Positions 9,336 to 52,074 of a stretch of DNA of 64,000 nucleotides are shown here, one piece after another. The stretch is taken from assembly GCA_964016885.1 (NCBI GenBank), contig OZ024748.1, forward strand, positions 13,950,001 to 14,014,000, read 5' to 3'. A program made the translations under genes and the position numbers. Position 1 is the stretch's first letter; every line of letters begins with the position of its first letter. The stretch is from Eledone cirrhosa (lineage: Eukaryota). The notes under the pieces were generated by a model. That model worked only from the letters and a program-made list of their open reading frames with translations, was not told the origin of the DNA and ran no database searches.

Positions 9336-10124
9336 CTAGGGCGGGTAAAATTCCCGAGATCCATGAACGAGTTCTCTCCAGTGGTCTCTGTCCCTCATTA
9401 TCGCTGCCATGTCCTGCGTCTCCAACAGACCAGTGCCTGTCCTTAGGGCATCAACATACGTTAACCTTGGTCTTCCTCTTCCAGTGTGCTCCCACAGGAG
9501 CACTGAGTGCAATGTCAACTCTGGATGTCGGTGAGCAAGTCCAGCTAATCTCAGTCTCCTCTGTGTCACTTTTGAGCTGACTTTTGGGAGATGCTGAATT
9601 TGCCGACGACATAGTTTTGGTGACAAATACAGTGAAGGAGGCAGAGGATTTGATGCGGGAGGTTGAGACTGTGTCGATGAGTATGGGGCTGTGAATGAAT
9701 GAGACTAAAACAAAATATCTGGTAGAAAATGTTGAGAAGCCAGAGGGGATCACTAATGTAGGCGGGAAGCCGCTAGAATTGGTTGAGGGCTTCCTGTATT
9801 CGGGAGCAAAGATTGGGAATACGGAGGATGATGTGGTTGAGAGGAAGAACAAAGTCTGGGCGGCGTGCCACAGCTTGAGATCGGTGTGGAAGTCGGACCT
9901 TCGTGAAGACCTTAAAATCCGCCTCTTCATTGCTGTAGTGGAGTCTGTGCTGCTGTACGGGTCTGAAATTTGGACACTGACCAAGAAACTCACTCAGATG
10001 GTGGATGGGTGCTACACGAGAATACTGAGGATGGCTGTGAACATTAATCAGTATACACTGAGGATGAAAAACTCAGAGTTGTATGGGAGCCTCCCAAAAG
10101 TCAGCTCAAAAGTGACACAGAGGA
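9336..10124 (-). pseudogene. 5'-truncated RTE-clade LINE reverse transcriptase fragment with inverted 5' segment
   Basis: Plus segment 9590-10124 encodes FADDIVL..MGL*MNETKTK..ESVLLYGSEIWTLT..LPKVSSKVTQR. Minus segment 9590-9336 continues LPKVSSKVTQRRLRLAG..GRGRPRLTYVD..DRDHWRELV. In-frame TGA at 9692. Confidence 0.92.
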
Positions 10125-10125
10125 T

Positions 10126-10193
<68 letters not shown>

Positions 10194-10340
10194 CGTGCGT
10201 ATGTAGTTAACGCACTAGAGAAATATTTAATTATTGTGGCTAAGTTATGAGACTTGTTACTCGGGAGTTTCACTTGCGTACACAATCACGTGATACTCCA
10301 GGCGAACAACACTCACTACTTAGCCATAATAAATGAATGC

Positions 10341-13255: not shown

Positions 13256-13285
13256 AGACAGGCGTGGTGGCCATGAGGTGGTTGT

Positions 13286-16200
13286 GATGGTTGTTGGTCA
13301 GTGGTGGTGGTGTAGTGTCGCTGGTAGTTGGTCAGTGGTGGTGGTGGTGTAGTGTCAATGGTTGTTGGTCAGTGGTGGTGGTGTAGTGTTGATGGTTGCT
13401 GGTCAGTGGTGGTGGTGGTGTAGTGTCAATGGTTGTTGGTCAGTGGTGGTGGTGTAGTGTCGCTGGTAGTTGGTCAGTGGTGGTGGTGTAGTGTCAATGG
13501 TTGTTGGTCAGTGGTGGTGGTGTAGTGTCAATGGTTGTTGGTCAGTGGTGGTGGTGTAGTGTCAATGGTTGTTGGTCAGTGGTGCTGGTGTAGTGTCGCT
13601 GGTAGTTGGTCAGTGGTGGTGGTGTAGTGTCAATGGTTGTTGGTCAGTGGTGGTGGTGTAGTGTCGATGGTTGTTGGTCAGTGGTGGTGGTGGTGTAGTG
13701 TCGATGGTTGTTGGTCAGTGGTGGTGGTGTAATGTTGATGGTTGTTGGTCAGTGGTGGTGTAGTGTTGATGGTTGTTGGTCAGTAGTGGTGGTGTAGTGT
13801 TGATGGTTGCTGGTCAGTGGTGGTGGTGTAGTGTTGATGGTAGTTGGTCAGTGGTGGTGGTGTAGTGTCGATGGTAGTTGGTCAGTGGTGGTGGTGTAGT
13901 GTCAATGGTTGTTGGTCAGTGGTGGTGGTGTAGTGTTGATGGTTGTTGGTCAGTGGTGGTGGTGTAGTGTTGATGGTTGTTGGTCAGTGGTGGTGGTGTA
14001 GTGTTGATGGTTGTTGGTTAGTGGTGGTGGTGTAGTGTTGATGGTTGTTGGTCAGTGGTGGTGGTGTAGTGTTGATGGTTGTTGGTCAGTGGTGGTGGTG
14101 TAGTGTTGATGGTTGTTGGTCAGTGGTGGTGGTGTAGTGTTGATGGTTGTTGGTCAGTGGTGGTGGTGTAATGTTGATGGTTGTTGGTCAGTGGTGGTGT
14201 AGTGTTGATGGTTGTTGGTCAGTAGTGGTGGTGTAGTGTTGATGGTTGCTGGTCAGTGGTGGTGGTGTAGTGTTGATGGTTGCTGGTCAGTGGTGGTGGT
14301 GTAGTGTTGATGGTTGTTGGTCAGTGGTGGTGGTGTAGTGTTGATGGTTGTTGGTCAGTGGTGGTGGTGTAGTGTTGATGGTTGCTGGTCAGTGGTGGTG
14401 GTGTAGTGTTGATGGTTGCTGGTCAGTGGTGGTGTAGTGTCGATGGTTGTTGGTCAGTGGTGGTGGTGTAGTGTCGATGGTTGTTGGTCAGTGGTGGTGT
14501 AGTGTTGATGGTTGGTCAGTAGTTGTGGTGTAGTGTTGATGGTTGCTGGTCAGTGGTGGTGGTGTAGTGTTGATGGTTGCTGGTCAGTGGTGGTGGTGTA
14601 GTGTTGTTGGTTGTTGGTCAGTGGTGGTGGTGTAGTGTTGATGGTTGTTGGTCAGTGGTGGTGTAGTGTTGATGGTTGTTGGTCAGTAGTGGTGGTGTAG
14701 TGTTGATGGTTGTTGGTCAGTAGTGGTGGTGTAGTGTTGATGGTTGCTGGTCAGTGGTGGTGGTGTAGTGTTGATGGTTGCTGGTCAGTGGTGGTGGTGT
14801 AGTGTTGATGGTTGCTGGTCAGTGGTGGTGGTGTAGTGTTGATGGTTGTTGGTCAGTGGTGGTGGTGTAATGTTGATGGTTGTTGGTCAGTAGTGGTGGT
14901 GTAGTGTTGATGGTTGCTGGTCAGTGGTGGTGGTGTAGTGTTGATGGTTGCTGGTCAGTGGTGGTGGTGTAGTGTCGCTGGTAGTTGGTCAGTGGTGGTG
15001 GTGTAGTGTCAATGGTTGTTGGTCAGTGGTGGTGGTGTAGTATTGATGGTTGTTGGTCAGTGGTGGTGGTGTAGTGTCGATGGTTGTTGGTCAGTGGTGG
15101 TGGTGTAGTGTTGATGGTTGCTGGTCAGTGGTGGTGGTGTAGTGTCGATGGTTGTTGGTCAGTGGTGGTGGTGTAGTGTTGATGGTTGTTGGTCAGTGGT
15201 GGTGGTGTAGTGTTGATGGTTGTTGGTCAGTAGTGGTGGTGTAGTGTTGATGGTTGCTGGTCAGTGGTGGTGTAGTGTCGATGGTTGTTGGTCAGTGGTG
15301 GTGGTGTAATGTTGATGGTTGTTGGTCAGTGGTGGTTTAGTGTTGATGGTTGTTGGTCAGTAGTGGTGGTGTAGTGTTGATGGTTGCTGGTCAGAGGTGG
15401 TGGTGTAGTGTTGATGGTTGCTGGTCAGTGGTGGTGGTGTAATGTTGATGGTTGTTGGTCAGTGGTGGTGTAGTGTTGATGGTTGTTGGTCAGTGGTGGT
15501 GGTGTAGTGTTGATGGTTGCTGGTCAGTGGTGGTGGTGTAATGTTGATGGTTGTTGGTCAGTAGTGGTGGTGTAGTGTTGATGGTTGCTGGTCAGTGGTG
15601 GTGGTGTAGTGTTGATGGTTGCTGGTCAGTGGTGGTGGTGTAGTGTCGCTGGTAGTTGGTCAGTGGTGGTGGTGTAGTGTTGATGGTTGCTGGTCAGTGG
15701 TGGTGGTGTAGTGTTGATGGTTGCTGGTCAGTGGTGGTGGTGTAGTGTCGATGGTTGTTGGTCAGTGGTGGTGGTGTAATGTTGATGGTTGTTGGTCAGT
15801 GGTGGTGTAGTGTTGATGGTTGTTGGTCAGTAGTGGTGGTGTAGTGTTGATGGTTGCTGGTCAGTGGTGGTGGTGTAGTGTTGATGGTTGCTGGTCAGTG
15901 GTGGTGGTGTAGTGTTGATGGTTGCTGGTCAGTGGTGGTGGTGTAGTGTTGATGGTTGTTGGTCAGTGGTGGTGGTGTAATGTTGATGGTTGTTGGTCAG
16001 TGGTGGTGTAGTGTTGATGGTTGTTGGTCAGTAGTGGTGGTGTAGTGTTGATGGTTGCTGGTCAGTGGTGGTGGTGTAGTGTTGATGGTTGCTGGTCAGT
16101 GGTGGTGGTGTAGTGTTGATGGTTGCTGGTCAGTGGTGGTGGTGTAGTGTTGATGGTTGTTGGTCAGTGGTGGTGGTGTAGTGTTGATGGTTGTTGGTCA

Positions 16201-19192
16201 GTGGTGGTGGTGTAATGTTGATGGTTGTTGGTCAGTAGTGGTGGTGTAGTGTTGATGGTTGCTGGTCAGTGGTGGTGGTGTAGTGTTGATGGTTGCTGGT
16301 CAGTGGTGGTGTAGTGTCGATGGTTGTTGGTCAGTGGTGGTGGTGTAGTGTCGATGGTTGTTGGTCAGTGGTGGTGTAGTGTTGATGGTTGTTGGTCAGT
16401 AGTGGTGGTGTAGTGTTGATGGTTGCTGGTCAGTGGTGGTGGTGTAGTGTTGATGGTTGCTGGTCAGTGGTGGTGGTGTAGTGTTGTTGGTCAGTGGTGG
16501 TGGTGTAATGTTGATGGTTGTTGGTCAGTGGTGGTGTAGTGTTGATGGTTGTTGGTCAGTGGTGGTGTAGTGTTGATGGTTGTTGGTCAGTAGTGGTGGT
16601 GTAGTGTTGATGGCTGCTGGTCAGTGGTGGTGGTGTAGTGTTGATGGTTGCTGGTCAGTGGTGGTGGTGCAGTGTTGATGGTTGTGGGTCAGTGGTGGTG
16701 GTGTAATGTTGATGGTTGTTGGTCAGTAGTGGTGGTGTAGTGTTGATGGTTGCTGGTCAGTGGTGGTGGTGTAGTGTTGATGGTTGCTGGTCAGTGGTGG
16801 TGGTGTAGTGTCAATGGTTGTTGGTCAGTGGTGGTGGTGTAGTATTGATGGTTGTTGGTCAGTGGTGGTGGTGTAGTGTCGATGGTTGTTGGTCAGTGGT
16901 GGTGGTGTAGTGTTGATGGTTGCTGGTCAGTGGTGGTGGTGTAGTGTCGATGGTTGTTGGTCAGTGGTGGTGGTGTAGTGTTCATGGTTGTTGGTCAGTG
17001 GTGGTGGTGTAGTGTTGATGGTTGTTGGTCAGTAGTGGTGGTGTAGTGTTGATGGTTGCTGGTCAGTGGTGGTGTAGTGTCGATGGTTGTTGGTCAGTGG
17101 TGGTGGTGTAGTATTGATGGTTGTTGGTCAGTGGTGGTGGTGTAGTGTCGATGGTTGTTGGTCAGTGGTGGTGGTGTAGTGTTGATGGTTGCTGGTCAGT
17201 GGTGGTGGTGTAGTGTCGATGGTTGTTGGTCAGTGGTGGTGGTGTAGTGTTGATGGTTGTTGGTCAGTGGTGGTGGTGTAATGTTGATGGTTGTTGGTCA
17301 GTAGTGGTGGTGTAGTGTTGATGGTTGCTGGTCAGTGGTGGTGTAGTGTCGATGGTTGTTGGTCAGTGGTGGTGGTGTAGTGTCGATGGTTGTTGGTCAG
17401 TGGTGGTGGTGTAATGTTGATGGTTGTTGGTCAGTGGTGGTTTAGTGTTGATGGTGGTTGGTCAGTGGTGGTGGTGTAGTGTTGATGGTTGCTGGTCAGT
17501 GGTGGTGGTGTAGTGTTGTTGGTCAGTGGTGGTGGTGTAATGTTGATGGTTGTTGGTCAGTGGTGGTGTAGTGTTGATGGTTGTTGGTCAGTAGTGGTGG
17601 TGTAGTGTTGATGGTTGCTGGTCAGTGGTGGTGGTGTAGTGTTGATGGTTGTTGGTCAGTGGTGGTTGTGTAGTGTCGATGGTTGTTGGTCAGTGGTGGT
17701 GGTGTAGTTTTGATGGTTGTTGGTCAGTGGTGGTGGTGTAATGTTGATGGTTGTTGGTCAGTGGTGGTGGTGTAGTGTTGATGGTTGTTGGTCAGTGGTG
17801 GTGGTGTAGTGTCGATGGTTGTTGGTCAGTGGTGGTGGTGTAGTGTCGATGGTTGTTGGTCAGTGGTGGTGGTGTAGTGTTGATGGTTGCTGGTCAGTGG
17901 TGGTGGTGTAATGTTGATGGTTGCTGGTCAGTGGTGGTGGTGTAGTGTCGATGGTTGTTGGTCAGTGGTGGTGGTGTAGTGTTGATGGTTGTTGGTCAGT
18001 GGTGGTGGTGTAGTGTTGATGGTTGCTGGTCAGTGGTGGTGGTGTAGTGTCGATGGTTGTTGGTCAGTGGTGGTGGTGTAGTGTTGATGGTTGTTGGTCA
18101 GTGGTGGTGGTGGTGTAGTGTTGATGGTTGTTGGTCAGTAGTGGTGGTGTAGTGTTGATGGTTGCTGGTCAGTGGTGGTGGTGTAGTGTTGATGGTTGCT
18201 GGTCAGTGGTGGTGTAGTGTCGATGGTTGTTGGTCAGTGGTGGTGGTGTAGTGTCGATGGTTGTTGGTCAGTGGTGGTGGTGTAATGTTGATGGTTGTTG
18301 GTCAGTGGTGGTGTAGTGTTGATGGTTGTTGGTCAGTAGTGGTGGTGTAGTGTTGATGGTTGCTGGTCAGTGGTGGTGGTGTAGTGTTGATGGTTGCTGC
18401 TCAGTGGTGGTGGTGTAGTGTTGATGGTTGCTGGTCAGTGGTGGTGGTGTAGTGTTGATGGCTGTTGGTCAGTGGTGGTGGTGTAGTGTTGATGGTTGTT
18501 GGTCAGTGGTGGTGGTGTAGTGTTGATGGTTGTTGGTCAGTAGTGGTGGTGTAGTGTTGATGGTTGCTGGTCAGTGGTGGTGGTGTAGTGTTGATGGTTG
18601 TTGGTCAGTGGTGGTGGTGTAGTGTCGATGGTTGTTGGTCAGTGGTGGTGGTGTAGTGTCGATGGTTGTTGGTCAGTGGTGGTGGTGTAGTTTTGATGGT
18701 TGTTGGTCAGTGGTGGTGGTGTAATGTTGATGGTTGTTGGTCAGTGGTGGTGGTGTAGTGTTGATGGTTGTTGGTCAGTGGTGGTGGTGTAGTGTCGATG
18801 GTTGTTGGTCAGTGGTGGTGGTGTAGTGTCGATGGTTGTTGGTCAGTGGTGGTGGTGAAGTGTTGATGGTTGTTGGTCAGTGGTGGTGGTGTAATGTTGA
18901 TGGTTGTTGGTCAGTGGTGGTGTAATGTTGATGGTTGCTGGTCAGTGGTTGTGGTGTAGTGTTGATGGTTGCTGGTCTGTGGTGGTGGTGTAGTGTTGAT
19001 GGTTGCTGGTCAGTGGTGGTGGTGTAGTGTTGATGGTTGCTGGTCAGTGGTGGTGGTGTAGTGTTGATGGTTGCTGGTCAGTGGTGGTGGTGTAGTGTTG
19101 ATGGTTACTGGTCAGTGGTGGTGGTGTAGTGTCGATGGTTACTGGTCAGTGGTGGTGCTGTAGTGTTGATGGTTGCTGGTCAGTGATGGTGG
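13286..19192. repeat. 5.9-kb minisatellite, 34-bp unit GGTCAGTGGTGGTGGTGTAGTGTTGATGGTTG(T/C)T (~175 copies)
   Basis: Period 34 (e.g. 13982 to 14016). 31- and 37-bp variants arise from GGT gain or loss. Confidence 0.98.
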
Positions 19193-20056: not shown

Positions 20057-20633
20057 GTTATTGAGGCGGTTTGTATATTTTATCATTCTATCTGCTTCTT
20101 GGTTAAATATTTCAAACAAATGTGGTTTTTCAACCCTTGTAATTTTAGACACACGGTTTACTGTGTTTCTTACTATATATTATTAATCAGCTCAGTATTT
20201 ATACTTTGAGCTTAATAGTTACAGAGTTCCAATTGAGTTTTAACTCTAATTTTCATATATATTTCTGCTCCCTCACAAGTTGAGCTTATTAAGTTGTGTG
20301 TGTTGGACTGTTATTTCTATTCAATACACGCTTACCACGTTTGACTAGCGGCGCACGAGGTGACAAATTCATCTTTCTGTGTGAACGTTGGCAAATAGTG
20401 TTTGTGGCATTTAATCAGATTCTCTCGCTGATGAAGCCCAGGATTATCTGTTACAAACACACTCAGGGCGAAACAGATTAGGGATAATCTGTCCGAGAGA
20501 TATAATGGTTATTGAGGCGGTTTGTATATTTTATCATTCTGTCTGCTTCTTGGTTAAATATTTCAAACAAATGTGGTTTTTCAACCCTTGTAATTTTAGA
20601 CACACGGTTTACTGTGTTTCTTACTATATATTA
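20055..20633 (+). mobile_element. Retrozyme-like / non-autonomous Penelope-like element: 451-nt unit with 128-bp terminal direct repeat, in (TA)n
   Basis: 20055-20182 equals 20506-20633 (1 mismatch). Intact HHR inside, no credible ORF, microsatellite on both flanks. Confidence 0.85.
20421..20500 (+). ncRNA. Intact type I hammerhead ribozyme
   Basis: Stem I TCTCTCG/CGAGAGA; core CTGATGA (20428-34); stem II GCCC/GGGC; GAAA (20470-73); stem III ACAGATTA-GGGA-TAATCTGT; GUC triplet 20491-20493. Confidence 0.92.
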
Positions 20634-23237: not shown

Positions 23238-23425
23238 GGGCGGTGGATTGGCAGTATCGGTAGAGGGTCGGACGCCATGTCTTCCAGCATAGTTACGTCC
23301 CTTTACGATCTGAGTTCAAATCCCGCCGAGGTTGACTTTGCCTTTCATCCGTACGGGGTCGATAAAATAAAGTACCAGCAATGCACTGAGTAATTGCTGG
23401 CCTTGTGCCTAAAGTAGAAACAATT
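23238..23425 (+). mobile_element. Nin/Deu-domain SINE
   Basis: Consensus match. Confidence 0.92.
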
Positions 23426-23579: not shown

Positions 23580-24230
23580 ATATAAAATATAAATATTTAC
23601 ACATACACCAATTAAACAAAGTCAGAGGTATATATGTGTTTTGGCAACTTTTCACGATGTGCCTCAATGAAGAATTAATAAATTAAATAATCAGAGCCAA
23701 ATACTATCGAGTAAAGCATGTCCAGAGAATTATTTGATAATATATATACATCATCTCTACTCCCAATCAGCATAATTAACCACACAAAAAAAATCAATTA
23801 GACCAGGCTATAAGAATAAAAGGCATCTATGAAGAAACAGTAAATAAATATACCATTGCAGCGTCTTCGCGCACAACGGCTATAGAATATTTACCCAACA
23901 TTTCAACAGCACGTGGAAATTAATTAAATATACGGTCAACCATACATAATTAGGTAAAAATGAATGTTAGAAAGTCTTATATACATACCAGGATTAAATC
24001 ACTAAATCCCATTAATTTCCACGTGCTGTTGAAATGTTGGCTAAATATTCTATAGCTGTTGTGCGCGAAGACGCCGCAGTGGGATATTTATTTACTGTTT
24101 CTTCATAGATGCCTTTTATTCTGATAGCCTGGTCTAATTGATTTTTTTTGTTTGGTTAATTATGCTGATTGGGAGTAGAGATGATGTATATATATTATCA
24201 AATAATTCTCTGGACATGCTTTACCCTATA
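23580..24230 (-). mobile_element. Diverged copy of the ~655-nt HHR element with ~215-bp inverted duplication
   Basis: About 23710-23924 vs 24011-24226 inverted. Homologous to 51677-52033. Confidence 0.8.
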
Positions 24231-25468: not shown

Positions 25469-25705
25469 ATTATATACATTATGACGCTATAATATACTCA
25501 AATATTATACTAGGCGTCCCGAGCTCTCAACAATGGCGGCAATAATAGTGAATGCATTTAATATTTTTAGTTCCGGATTAAAAAGCCGCATATGCCCGGA
25601 TTACCAGATATATGCATAAGCATACACACTGCGAAATTCCGTTTTGATAAACTAATTATTTGCATTGGAGAAACTCTATAGTTTATGTTTATTATTGATA
25701 CAAGA

Positions 25706-25897
25706 GCGGTGGATTGATAGAATCAGTAGAGGGTCGGACGCCATGCTTTGCAACATAGAGTTACGGCCCTTTATGATCTGAGTTCAAATCCCGCTGAGGT
25801 TAACTTTGCCTTTCATCCTTACGGGTTCGATAACATAAAGTGCCAGTAATACACTGGGGTGTTTGCTGGCCTTGTGCCAAAAGTAGAAACAATTATT
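25706..25897 (+). mobile_element. Nin/Deu-domain SINE with TSD
   Basis: Consensus match. Flanks ATTATTGATACAAGAGC / ATTATTAACACAAGAGC. Confidence 0.9.
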
Positions 25898-26666: not shown

Positions 26667-26737
<71 letters not shown>

Positions 26738-26739
<2 letters not shown>

Positions 26740-27250
26740 TAAAATATGTCTTTAGAATCACTAGATATAATATATACCATTTCCTCTCCCAATTAGTATA
26801 ATTAACCATATAAAAAATCAATTAGACCAAGCTATAAGAATAAAGGCCCCTATGAAGAAATCTCCGACAAATAACCGAAAGCAGCCCCTTCGCGGTGGCT
26901 ACAATAGATTATTTATCTAACATTTCGACAGCATGTAAAAATCGACCAGATATACAGTCAACTAAACACAATTAGGTGTAAAATTGAACTTAGAAGAATT
27001 GCGTGCATACCTAATTACCTCTACCATGGTTCCATCCGTATTTTAAGACATCCGATAACAAGGAATGTCCAGAGCTTCGGAATCATCAGGAGCGAGCTCA
27101 AAATACGACATTTAATTTTCCAAAGTGATCGCGCCAAAAATACATTAAAAAATGGCTAAGAATCGTGACGTGGCAGCGCTCAAGTTAGAAAGGATGTGAT
27201 TAGTCGCTTACGGCGAGTAGGTTTATTGCTAGAAAGCGCAGCCTAATACC
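26738..27250 (-). mobile_element. Copy of the ~655-nt HHR element with degenerate ribozyme
   Basis: Homologous to 51425-51940. Minus strand CTC-CTGATGA-TTCCG...CGGAT-GGAA-CCATGGTA-GAG at about 27019-27093. Confidence 0.8.
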
Positions 27251-27274
27251 ACCAAATTGTATTTCAACCGAACT

Positions 27275-43425: not shown

Positions 43426-43839
43426 GTAGGAGGTGAGTTTTATTGTAGTACAATAAAGCAATGCAGATATCGGATAAGAAGCACTCTACAGTTTGTGGGA
43501 CTGGAGTATGCATAATATAAGATCAAAAGATGGTTAAAGGAGTTCCATATATTTTATTATGCGCATTTCAAAAACAAACATCATCAAGCAATAATATTTG
43601 TGTTTTCATCAGATAAAACAGGAGAACATGATATGAAGGCTAAAAAACACTTGTGGATAGTGCAGTTTTAAATCAACATATGTTGATTTAAAACTGCACT
43701 ATCCACAAGTGTTTTTTAGCCTTCATATCATGTTCTCCTGTTTTATCTGATGAAAACACAAATATTATTGCTTGATGATGTTTGTTTTTGAAATGCGCAT
43801 AATAAAATATATGGAACTCCTTTAACCATCTTTTGATCT

Positions 43840-49594: not shown

Positions 49595-50480
49595 CAAGGT
49601 GTGTCAGAAAAGTTCCACGACTGATGTAACAAAAGATTTATTTCAAACGCAAACTTTACACTAAGAGTTTTCTCCTTCAAAGTAATCCCCCTGGAGTATG
49701 TAACTGTAATCTTAGGTCTCTGCAGCGATCAAACATTTGTATTCATAATTTTATATGCATGTCGTCTGTTTCAGATCGTCAAGCAATGAGCACAGAGCAA
49801 CGAACAAACTTGAACTTTCTGGTACGGTTGGGGAAAACTCCGTCAGAAGCACGGGGATTGCTGCAGCAAGTGTATGGAGATGAGACGATGTCATGCTCAC
49901 ATTTTTTTGAGTGGTGCAAGATGACCCCCGGAGCGGAAGGCACTCAACAACCAGGACTGAGGTCAACGTTGAGTGCGTCAGGCAGATGGTGCGTAACGAT
50001 CGTCGGCTGACTGTTCGACTGATGGCAAAAGAGCTGGGCATGAATCGGGACAGCGTCTGGAAGATTCTCACTGAAGACTTGGACTTGCAGAACGTGTGCG
50101 CGAAGAAGGTGTCAAAACTGCTGAACGATGACCAGAAGGGTCGACGCATGTAAGTGTGCCAGGACATTCTCGAGCGTCTTGAAACCGAACCAGACTTCCT
50201 AGAGACAGTCATCACCGGGGATGAGTCATGGATCTTCGAGTACGACTCGAAGGGGACACGTTTTGAAGACGTGGACGACATCAAAAAGGCTGTGACGACC
50301 GAACTGCGGAGGATCCCGGAAGAATCCTTCCAGGAGTGCATGCTAGCGTGGCAGAAAAGGATGGAAAATTGCATTAAACTCCAGGTGGATTACTTTAAAG
50401 GAGAAAACTCTTAGTGTGAAGTTTGTGTTTGAAATAAATCTTTTGTGACAATAGTCCTGGAACTTTTCTGGCACACTTCG
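49595..50480 (+). mobile_element. Internally deleted mariner transposon (886 bp) with ~103-bp TIRs and TA flanks; transposase pseudogene
   Basis: EQRTNLNFLVRLGKT (HTH), DDPRSGR, DRRLTVR, ITGDESWIFEYD, then a jump to KGTRFEDVDDIKK..WQKRMENCI..DYF. Frameshifts and a stop. TIRs 49595-49697 / 50378-50480. Confidence 0.95.
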
Positions 50481-50567
50481 TATATATATATATAAATATA
50501 TATAAACATATATTTATGTGCGTGCGTGCGTGCGTGCGTGCGCGTGTGCGTGTGTGTGTGTGTGTGT

Positions 50568-50771
50568 GTGATGCATCGGAACTCAATTTATTGTGTGTTG
50601 CAATTGTTTCCCGGGTCAGAAACCCCATAAAAAAGTATATGCTCCGAAATCAATAGGCGTGTCAGAGGAATCTGCGAGTCTAGTGTCATTTCAATCCACA
50701 TACAAATCGCACCTCGAGCAGTTCGCCGGGGAAACAATTGTAACACAATAAATTGAGTTCCGATGCATCAC
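50568..50771. repeat. Inverted repeat (~45-bp arms) with HHR-like 3' half GAAACAATTGTA
   Basis: 50568-50614 vs 50726-50771. Confidence 0.7.
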
Positions 50772-50900
50772 TGATTTTTCGTTTTCCATTCGATACATAT
50801 ATATATATAAAGATATATATATGTGCGTCCTTATATATATATATATATATATATATATGCGTATATATATATATATATGCGTATATATATATATATATGC

Positions 50901-50977
<77 letters not shown>

Positions 50978-50980
<3 letters not shown>

Positions 50981-52031
50981 TAAATCATGTCCTTAGAATT
51001 ATTAGGTAAAATATATACCATTTCCTCTCCCAATTAGCATAATTAATCATATAAAAAATCAATTAGACCAGGCTATAAGAATAAAGGCTCCTATGAAGAA
51101 ATATTTGATAAATAACCGAAAGCGGCCTCTTCGAGGTGACCCGATAGAACATTTACCCAACATTTCAACAGCATGTAGAAACTGACTAAATATACCGTCA
51201 ACCATACGCAATTAGGTGTAAATTTAAACTTAGAAGAAATGGTATATATTTTATCTAATAATTCTAAGGACATGATTTATGATATATTGCGCTGATTATT
51301 TAATTTATTAATTCTTCATTGAGCCACAACGTGACCGGTTGCCACATATATATCTGGGACATTATGTATATGTAAATCTTTATACTTAATAATCTCCCGT
51401 TGGGTTGAGATACATTTGGGCGATATTGGGCTGCGCTTTCTAGCAACCAGCCTACTCGCCGTAAGCAACTAATCACATTCTTTCTAACTTGACCACTGCC
51501 ACGTCACGATTCGTAGCCATTTTTTAATCTATTTTTGGCACGATCGCTTTGGAAAATTAAATGTCCGACTGAATTTGTCTCCTGATGAGTCTGTTACTCT
51601 AGGTTCATCCTTAATAGTAGGATATCTAAAAATACGGACGAAACAATGGTAGAGATGTAATTATGGCATGTACACGTTTCTTCTAAGTTTAAATTTACAC
51701 CTAATTGTGTATGGTTGACGGTATATTTAATCAGTTTCTACATGCTGTTGAAATGTTGGGTAACTACTCTATTGGGGTCACCGCGAAGAGGCCGCTTTCG
51801 GTTATTTATCAAATATTTCTTCATAGGAGCCTTTATTCTTATAGCCTGGTCTAATTGATTTTTTATATGGTTAATTATGCTAATTGGGAGAGGAAATGGT
51901 ATATATGTTATCTAATAATTCTAAGGACATGATTTATGATATATTGCTCTAATTATTTAATTATTCATTGAGCCACAACGTGACCGGTTGCCACATATAT
52001 ATCTGGGACTTTATGTATATGTAAATCTTTA

Positions 52032-52033
<2 letters not shown>
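50978..52033 (+). mobile_element. Non-autonomous Penelope-like/retrozyme element: inverted 5' piece plus ~655-nt unit with ~145-bp terminal direct repeat
   Basis: 51236-51384 matches 51893-52033; 50978-51239 is the reverse complement of 51677-51942; HHR at 51577-51656; (TA)n flanks. Confidence 0.87.
51577..51656 (+). ncRNA. Type I hammerhead ribozyme with long stem II
   Basis: GTCTC-CTGATGA-GTCTGT...ACGGAC-GAAA-CAATG-GTA-GAGAT. GUA triplet 51649-51651. Confidence 0.82.

Positions 52034-52074
<41 letters not shown>

What the first reader, a model, noticed from the sequence alone, without database searches (positions are those of the whole stretch)
50978..52033. Second HHR family (~655-nt unit) with Penelope-style tandem plus inverted architecture; three copies in the window
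Seen: a 1.2-mer tandem with one HHR (51577-51656). It is preceded by an inverted 262-bp piece joined through GAAA microhomology, ending about 25 nt from the cleavage site. Diverged copies lie at 23580-24230 (also inverted-duplicated) and 26738-27250, where stem III is the palindrome ACCATGGT. Known: partial-tandem plus inverted 5' segments typify Penelope-like insertions, and palindromic stem III implies dimeric HHR cleavage. Inference: an ORF-less, larger-than-usual retrozyme-like parasite.
Basis: partly seen in the sequence, partly recalled or inferred. Interest (0 to 1): 0.82.

Follow-up and report, generated by a model that had tools for sequence, protein, structure and literature searches.

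The report
Penelope-borrowing hammerhead retrozyme family
This is one of thousands of copies of a roughly 660-letter, protein-free jumping element with a self-cutting RNA motif; the kind is known, but the ends of its copies suggest that Penelope-type enzymes write it into TA repeats from two fixed start points, and that some templates were cut by the ribozyme while most were read straight through it, likely as an RNA circle.

Summary
51236-52037 is a 1.23-unit arm of a 657-nt unit with one type I hammerhead (predicted cut 51651/51652), joined through GAAA to an inverted 262-bp arm, inside (TA)n. The family has about 10,000 insertions (wide interval) and at least five ORF-less subfamilies of 657-702 nt; the three window copies belong to three of them. 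All share a hammerhead with a lengthened helix II and a palindromic helix III; a ~240-nt paired rod follows it (four subfamilies tested). Copies end at two fixed sites about 100 nt apart, the Penelope 'tail'. In 56 of 57 two-armed insertions with both ends assignable, one arm uses each site. Most cDNA arms read through the ribozyme, but 6 of about 150 stop exactly at the cut (0.5 expected), indirect evidence of cleavage in vivo. Intact Neptune-type Penelope elements co-occur; none shares sequence with the unit, though one chimera joins the two. No RNA data were available. Verdict: a non-autonomous Penelope-like element (animal non-LTR retrozyme), new variant of a known kind; circular template about 55%. 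The scan noted the same two-armed pattern earlier in other hammerhead families of this genome.

The parts
50793..50977 (.). left (TA)n target microsatellite
   Evidence: 127 of 149 fixed ends in the family abut (TA)n
50978..51239 (-). inverted arm, unit positions 390-657, ending at the fixed 'core' end
51236..51239 (.). GAAA microhomology joining the 5' ends of the two arms
51236..51287 (+). partial upstream unit (pseudo-LTR-like overlap) of the forward arm
51288..51944 (+). one full 657-nt unit (subfamily A), no ORF
51469..51523 (+). CCAAT-like box and AGCCATTTT motif, in the same order before the hammerhead as in co-resident Neptune-type pseudo-LTRs; promoter role is inferred, motif names recalled
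51577..51656 (+). type I hammerhead with lengthened helix II; predicted cut between 51651 and 51652
51665..51907 (+). predicted ~240-nt rod-like paired domain conserved in four subfamilies
51945..52037 (+). 'tail': start of the next unit up to the second fixed end (unit position ~98-101)
52038..52070 (.). right (TA)n target microsatellite
23581..24010 (-). subfamily E copy, tail-ended arm whose 5' end is exactly the first base after the predicted hammerhead cut
   Evidence: L381
24011..24234 (+). subfamily E copy, core-ended second arm
26732..27273 (-). subfamily D copy, single 5'-truncated arm with hammerhead (core at 27089, palindromic helix III at 27023-27030)

Best explanation
This is a protein-free, hammerhead-bearing repeat of 657-702 nt with two fixed ends about 100 nt apart, likely copied into (TA)n microsatellites by the reverse transcriptase-endonuclease of a co-resident Penelope-like element from an RNA that is probably a circle made by ribozyme cutting and re-ligation. 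Steps. (1) Inferred: multi-unit loci are transcribed. (2) Indirectly supported: the hammerhead cuts, probably as a dimer through the palindromic helix III. (3) Inferred: monomers are ligated to circles. (4) Shown as a genomic pattern, enzyme inferred: cDNA starts at two internal sites (core end, tail end), 293 and about 390 nt 3' of the cut; both end in TATA-like letters that could pair with a nicked (TA)n. (5) Shown as a pattern: when both sides of the break prime, one arm starts at each site, both arms carry the same variants, and their random 5' ends join by microhomology or filler. (6) Shown: most arms run through an intact hammerhead and about 30% of those that reach it run on into the previous unit; a minority stop at the cut, as expected of cut, unligated RNA. 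The best candidate helper is the Neptune-type family of L067/L073/L079 (about 35%).
For: Fixed ends. Two-armed insertions: 82 junctions in A-D, 57 with both ends assignable, 56 core+tail, 1 tail+tail, 0 core+core (P 4e-16 at p=0.5); in E, 9 of 9 assignable among 15. [quoted passage not shown] (TA)n at 127 of 149 ends. Shared variants: 34-74% between tandem units, 33-72% between arms, 7-24% between insertions. Read-through: of 90 arms taken by queries just 3' of the cut, 83 pass it, 27 cross the unit junction, 4 pass a second hammerhead (a few loci are the same insertion). Stops at the cut: 8 in 744 nt of exposure at -5..+1 against 1.5 expected from the flanks (P 2e-4; 7 insertions); subfamily E 6 of 19 within 0..9 nt 3' of the cut; 6 of about 150 arms exactly at the cut (P 2e-5, or 8e-4 at twice the background rate). 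Structure: circular-fold z -3.6 to -6.1 against 25 shuffles each; hammerhead stems 86% paired against 31-53% when slid, 3 of 13 pairs with double-sided changes; rod 97% paired against 43-46%, 6 of 71 double-sided. Intact RT + C-terminal GIY-YIG frames with a CX4CX2C linker in the genome, also ending in (TA)n. One insertion joins 2.2 kb of such a Neptune-type ORF in the same orientation to a subfamily D 3' part, between (TA)n, with no rest of the ORF in the next 9.5 kb.
Against: No autonomous element shares sequence with the unit among 50 GIY-YIG loci, by BLAST or by a profile; these are 50 of 10,596 candidates. The chimera is a single case and could be an insertion with deletion. The circle is not shown: uncut multimer transcripts would also give read-through, and in the anole system hammerhead mutants did not change insertion in vitro and no RNA reads ended at the cut. 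The pre-stated replication in subfamily E was weak: 3 of 23 new arms in the 0..+9 window by consensus mapping (P 0.045), 2 of 23 by the script's own offset count (P 0.18); the -5..+1 window was chosen; secondary arms alone show 2 stops in 622 nt at -15..+1, not an excess; a three-arm pile-up also occurs 19 nt upstream in subfamily B. No A-to-G strand bias among private variants (124 against 165 T-to-C, P 0.81), so no editing scar of an RNA stage. The pair-count controls do not correct for relatedness: the 24 rows are 4 clades, and the rod structure was derived from the same alignment. All loci are top-scoring hits (40 scored per search, 20-30 fetched), not a random sample.
Confidence: 0.62

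Rival explanations
1. Same non-autonomous Penelope-like element, but the usual template is an uncut linear multimer transcript from a few multi-unit source loci; the hammerhead cuts only occasionally and no circle is used for insertion.
For: Read-through of the hammerhead and shared variants are equally expected; 2.3- to 3.5-unit loci exist; unprocessed RNA was the dominant substrate for the anole protein in vitro; a 2-bp helix III is a poor monomeric ribozyme; 8 of 9 Xenopus retrozyme dimers did not cleave in vitro.
Against: Multi-unit loci are rare (4 of 111 main arms over 2 units even in samples chosen by long queries) and linear copying loses length each round unless something re-duplicates the unit; no pile-up of 5' ends at a transcription start or at the unit junction; the hammerhead core and stems were kept through five subfamilies.
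Confidence: 0.28
2. The copies are only 5'-truncated pseudo-LTR remnants of an autonomous Penelope-like family that was not found, not an independent parasite.
For: The unit has the order CCAAT-like box, AGCCAYTTTT, hammerhead, fixed ends seen in the pseudo-LTRs of co-resident Neptune-type elements; only 50 of 10,596 GIY-YIG candidates were inspected.
Against: The unit closes on itself head to tail without a seam in every more-than-unit copy, including after the tail, where an autonomous element would enter its ORF; of roughly 300 family loci searched with eight PLE proteins only isolated neighbours and one chimera were found; five subfamilies keep the same closed unit.
Confidence: 0.06
3. A DNA-level satellite or palindrome-forming repeat spread by recombination or rolling-circle DNA replication; the hammerhead is a passive relic.
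For: No A-to-G editing scar; tandem units exist.
Against: Dispersed single insertions on many contigs, fixed 3' and random 5' ends, stops at the ribozyme cut, and one-sided changes in the rod that are mostly A/G opposite U, i.e. tolerated as G-U in the sense RNA (22 of the 24 pairs with five or more such rows, read; the predictor favours such pairs).
Confidence: 0.04

Closest known systems
Animal non-LTR retrozymes (Cervera and de la Pena 2020, PMC7229834, passages read; Li, Clavereau and Pollet 2026, bioRxiv 10.64898/2026.07.22.740005, parts 1-3 of 5 read)
   Same: Non-coding, low-GC unit with one type I hammerhead, head-to-tail copies, short palindromic helix III, co-occurrence with autonomous Penelope-like elements, which both papers propose as the mobiliser.
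   Different: Unit 657-702 nt (above the 170-400 nt of the first paper, inside the 51-972 bp of the second); mostly 0.4-1.5-unit dispersed insertions rather than long arrays; helix II carries an extra hairpin (about 50 nt between core halves); a ~240-nt rod follows the cut; and the insertions show Penelope end signatures, which the passages read do not analyse. Expression and circles are shown there, not here.
Penelope-like elements, EN+ clades, and their insertion structure (Craig et al. 2021, PMC8557442, passages read; Frangieh et al. 2024, PMC11167929, main text read)
   Same: Partial tandems, inverted 5'-truncated arm, optional tail at one end, (TA)n bias, hammerhead upstream of two internal start sites.
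   Different: No RT/GIY-YIG ORF; tail about 97-133 nt instead of 30-40; start sites 293-390 nt from the cut instead of about 100; strict one-arm-per-site pairing counted here, whereas the in vitro study saw no difference in start site between strands.
Non-autonomous Chlamys elements such as MRC1 of Chlamydomonas (PMC8557442, passage read)
   Same: Non-coding Penelope-type parasites forming pseudo-LTRs and multicopy head-to-tail insertions.
   Different: Those generally resemble an autonomous family at the 3' end and the clade mostly lacks canonical hammerheads; here a hammerhead is present and no sequence-similar parent was found.
Dimer-dependent minimal hammerheads of Penelope pseudo-LTRs (Cervera and de la Pena 2014, PMC4209133, passages read)
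   Same: Type I, 1-2 bp helix III with palindromic loop; that paper proposes cut-and-ligated circles as templates for more-than-unit copies.
   Different: Helix II here is interrupted by an internal loop and extended; position 10.1-11.1 is G-C in A and E, U-A in part of B, U-U in C and D (U-U occurs naturally, PMC3088659, passage read).

Membership tests
Animal non-LTR retrozyme | Type I hammerhead in each unit | tested here: met
   Pattern in 101 of 115 full units; stems covary; subfamily E
Animal non-LTR retrozyme | [quoted passage not shown] | tested here: met
   Met by the family (2.3-3.5-unit loci L010, L013, L107, L157, L399); this locus has only one hammerhead
Animal non-LTR retrozyme | No protein-coding capacity, low GC | tested here: met
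   Longest stop-free stretch 65-83 codons in five subfamilies; GC 0.36 at 50001-52000
Animal non-LTR retrozyme | Unit size 170-400 nt (2020) or 51-972 bp (2026) | tested here: met
   657-702 nt: outside the first range, inside the second
Animal non-LTR retrozyme | Self-cleavage of the RNA | tested here: inconclusive
   Only indirect: excess of cDNA 5' ends at the predicted cut; no assay possible
Animal non-LTR retrozyme | Expression as linear and circular monomer RNA | not testable with these tools
   No RNA holder listed
Penelope-like element (insertion type) | Partial tandem, inverted 5'-truncated arm, tail at one end | tested here: met
Penelope-like element (insertion type) | Microsatellite insertion bias | tested here: met
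   127 of 149 fixed ends abut (TA)n
Autonomous Penelope-like element | ORF with RT and GIY-YIG endonuclease | tested here: not met
Non-autonomous derivative of a named PLE family | 3' end or pseudo-LTR similar in sequence to an autonomous family | tested here: inconclusive
   No similarity in 50 of 10,596 GIY-YIG candidates; same motif order; one chimera
Hammerhead ribozyme type I | Conserved core CUGANGA/GAAA/UH with three helices | tested here: met
   Rfam match below threshold
Hammerhead ribozyme type I | Loop 1-loop 2 tertiary contact for fast cleavage | not tested
   Helix II is extended; no contact was modelled

The most novel reading that the evidence does not exclude
The genome holds a fossil record of the whole Penelope/retrozyme cycle: the hammerhead cuts in the germ line (cDNA arms stopping at the cut, more often in the subfamily with the more canonical ribozyme), the monomer is closed to a ~660-700-nt viroid-like circle with a long rod, and one helper-protein dimer holds one circle at its two start sites and primes each side of the DNA break from a different site. 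The family would have lost all sequence likeness to its helper and be recognised by RNA structure alone.
Probability: 0.3. Interest if true: 0.8.

Novelty: new variant of a known kind. Interest (0 to 1): 0.55.

Why it matters
Which enzyme moves animal retrozymes, whether hammerheads of Penelope-type elements cut in vivo, and whether a circle is the template are open in the papers read: PLE mobilisation is proposed from co-occurrence and pseudo-LTR similarity, the circle is a proposal, and the one in vitro study found cleavage dispensable. This family gives counted genomic signatures on all three points (one arm per start site, read-through of the ribozyme, a minority of arms ending at the cut) and a ready substrate pair (a short RNA and co-resident intact Neptune-type proteins) for a direct test. 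The class itself is not new.

Tried and rejected
Rfam: the whole-window scan listed only microsatellite and hairpin matches among the 150 of 300 rows shown; the local scan gave a sub-threshold hammerhead. Search for an autonomous parent: BLAST and profile of the unit against 50 GIY-YIG loci found only separate family insertions; a 20-nt likeness to a Neptune-type 3' region is antisense and not significant (E 0.61); a query on the tail plus the next 40 nt gave 30 loci with no coding sequence joined to the element. L383/L393 has a Neptune-type fragment abutting a cut-off tail, but in a nested, rearranged locus; not counted. RNA: no RNA holder listed; the three listed runs are contigs of unrecorded kind from one sample and tell nothing on expression, ends or circles. 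Recurrent differences between upstream and downstream units as a test of linear master versus circle: uninformative, because multi-unit loci inflate the counts. A higher stop rate at the cut in subfamily E than in A/B/D: 9 of 42 against about 9 of 106, P 0.048 by consensus mapping, 0.087 by the script's count; not established. Naiad as helper: considered because of (TA)n bias and 'half-core' hammerheads with 35-50 nt spacing, but the paper reports only remnants in cephalopods and I did not search for Naiads. Literature: 7 searches found no description of this family, of strict core/tail pairing of the two arms or of cDNA stops at the hammerhead cut; subscription papers, Repbase/Dfam entries and all supplements were not seen and may hold the family or such counts.

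Full report
Setting. The window lies in a 3.0-Gb animal assembly rich in (TA)n; that it is a cephalopod is my impression from recalled repeat types and from earlier scan notes, not a tested result. Unit positions below count from window 51288 (position 1) to 51944 (657).

Observation. Confirmed in all measurable points. The locus is (TA)n, an inverted arm (50978-51239; unit 390-657), a GAAA microhomology (51236-51239), a forward arm of 1.23 units (to 52037), and (TA)n. The forward arm carries one type I hammerhead (51577-51656), predicted to cut after 51651 (unit 364). Rfam scores it below threshold.

Family. A search with the unit gave 4,433 first-look candidates; the 40 scored include 42 near-full units at 93-100%. 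Diverged copies met by chance and in the window led to five subfamilies: A 657, B 691, C 702, D 659 and E 688 nt, 70-85% identical to A where compared. The window's three copies are A, E and D. In 60 evenly spaced 10-kb stretches, two clear insertions were found, i.e. about 10,000 genome-wide with a 95% interval of 1,200-36,000; the stretches came from ten large contigs. No consensus has a stop-free frame above 83 codons.

RNA anatomy. All subfamilies keep CUGANGA, GAAA and GUH, stem I, a helix II that is interrupted and extended by a second hairpin, and a palindromic helix III (ACCAUGGU in A, B, D; longer palindromes in C and E). On 24 aligned units the 13 named hammerhead pairs are 86% paired against 31-53% when slid, with 3 double-sided changes. 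Right after the cut a rod of about 240 nt is predicted in each of A-D (z -3.6 to -6.1 for the whole unit folded as a circle, 25 shuffles each) and in the consensus fold: 97% of cells paired, 6 of 71 pairs with double-sided changes, most other changes A/G opposite U. These counts rest on four clades and on a structure derived from the same alignment, so they show consistency, not a probability. Upstream of the hammerhead lie a CCAAT-like box and AGCCAYTTTT (exact in A, B, D), the same order as in pseudo-LTRs of co-resident autonomous elements; the promoter reading is inference.

Ends. 3' ends fall at two places: the core end (657) and the tail end (about 98 in A, 104 in D, 113-119 in E, 121-125 in B, 121-133 in C). 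127 of 149 such ends abut (TA)n. Of 111 insertions from the first four searches, 47 were two-armed. Over all A-D loci, 82 two-armed junctions were found; 25 had an end that could not be assigned; of the other 57, 56 pair a core end with a tail end. In E, 9 of 9 assignable among 15 do. Junctions show overlap of 2 or more nt in 27, blunt joins in 23 and filler in 32 of 82. Tandem units and opposite arms of one insertion share non-consensus variants far more often (33-74%) than different insertions (7-24%). This is the Penelope footprint: partial tandem, inverted arm, tail at one end, microsatellite bias (PMC8557442, passages), and the tail is the stretch between two internal reverse-transcription start sites of the anole Poseidon protein (PMC11167929, main text). 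The simplest reading, which is inference, is one RNA held at both sites by a protein dimer, each site priming one side of the break.

What the template was. With queries placed just 3' of the cut, 83 of 90 arms run through the hammerhead, 27 cross the unit junction and 4 pass a second hammerhead. A cut linear monomer cannot give these; a circle or an uncut multimer can. A minority of arms stop at the cut. In A, B and D, 226 arms were scored with left truncation: 8 stops at -5..+1 over 744 nt of exposure against 1.5 expected from the flanking rate (P 2e-4, 0.005 at the overall rate; two of the eight are the two arms of one insertion; the window was chosen). In E, 6 of 19 arms stop 0-9 nt 3' of the cut, and the window's own E copy stops exactly at it (24010). 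A prediction written before reading a second E search was met only weakly: 3 of 23 new arms in the window by consensus mapping (P 0.045), 2 of 23 by the script's offset count (P 0.18), 6 of 23 in a wider post hoc window. Pooled, 6 of about 150 arms in three subfamilies end on the exact first base after the cut, against 0.5 expected. Against this: secondary arms alone show no excess, and a three-arm pile-up occurs elsewhere in B. I take the signal as real but modest, indirect evidence that the ribozyme cuts in the germ line. No A-to-G strand bias was found.

Helper. The genome has 10,596 GIY-YIG candidates. Among 50 loci inspected are intact frames of 844-1,096 codons with RT and C-terminal GIY-YIG and a CX4CX2C linker, Neptune-type by the description (no tree was built); they also end in (TA)n and carry minimal hammerheads with palindromic helix III. 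None is similar in sequence to the unit. One locus (L304) has, between (TA)n runs, a fragment of a Neptune-type 3' region, 2.2 kb of its ORF (95% to L073), a 62-bp fold-back and a subfamily D 3' part (97% to its consensus), all but the fold-back in one orientation, with no remainder of the ORF in 9.5 kb downstream. A template switch within one insertion event fits; an insertion with deletion also fits. It is one case.

Comparison with what is known. It works like a non-autonomous Penelope-like element and meets the sequence-level definition of an animal non-LTR retrozyme; cleavage and circular RNA could not be tested. The size is inside the published range of 51-972 bp. PLE mobilisation of retrozymes and circles as templates for more-than-unit copies are published proposals. 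Seven literature searches did not find this family or the two counts reported here; supplements and repeat databases were not seen. Earlier scan notes report the same two-armed, two-end pattern for 310-, 422-, 467-, 483- and 591-nt hammerhead families of this genome; I read them after my own tally, did not test those families, and none matched this unit by sequence.

Verdict. Real feature; first reading supported; new variant of a known kind. Non-autonomous Penelope-type mobilisation about 90%, circular template about 55%, the L067/L073 family as helper about 35%. Interest 0.55.

Noticed in passing
L304:1-1790 (G000:C19:31284500-31287440): Neptune-type ORF fragment joined in the same orientation to a subfamily D 3' part, bounded by (TA)n: possible template-switch chimera naming the helper.
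   Followed up: partly
L061, L067, L079 pseudo-LTRs: Autonomous Neptune-type elements carry minimal hammerheads whose core reads TTGAAAA instead of CTGANGA (a U3-A8 swap, name recalled), with palindromic helix III ACCGGT; in L067/L079 the second core half reads GCA.
   Followed up: partly
window 43612(-), 43747(+), 46986(-); also L079:5462: Another hammerhead-like repeat family, 36 nt between core halves, palindromic ATGCGCAT helix III; the two copies at 43.6-43.7 kb are back to back, giving the perfect hairpin at 43631-43728 that Rfam calls a microRNA.
   Followed up: no
window 20418-20510 (+): Type I hammerhead of a different family with 7-bp stem I, 4-bp helix II and a long helix III, cut triplet GTC.
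   Followed up: no
window 721, 1385, 5898, 9220, 36536 (+), 22599, 45841 (-): Short CTGATGA motifs, some with a 13-15 nt spacer to GAAA, resembling minimal Penelope pseudo-LTR hammerheads.
   Followed up: no
window 13285-19192: 34-bp satellite, about 176 copies, 92% matches, strongly G/T-skewed.
   Followed up: no
window 49750-50420: Broken transposase remnant reading ITGDESWIFEYD on the + strand, Tc1/mariner-like by recall.
   Followed up: no
window 9451-10210: 171-codon frame resembling the end of a LINE reverse transcriptase (recalled), running into (TA)n.
   Followed up: no
window 23239-23425 and 25705-25890: Two copies of a ~185-bp SINE-like repeat that also recurs in many fetched loci.
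   Followed up: no
A1 columns 96-100 with 383-387 (window 51650-51654 with about 51919-51923): A conserved 5-bp pairing in the consensus fold would cover the hammerhead cut site and could act as an off-state; predicted only, no double-sided change.
   Followed up: no
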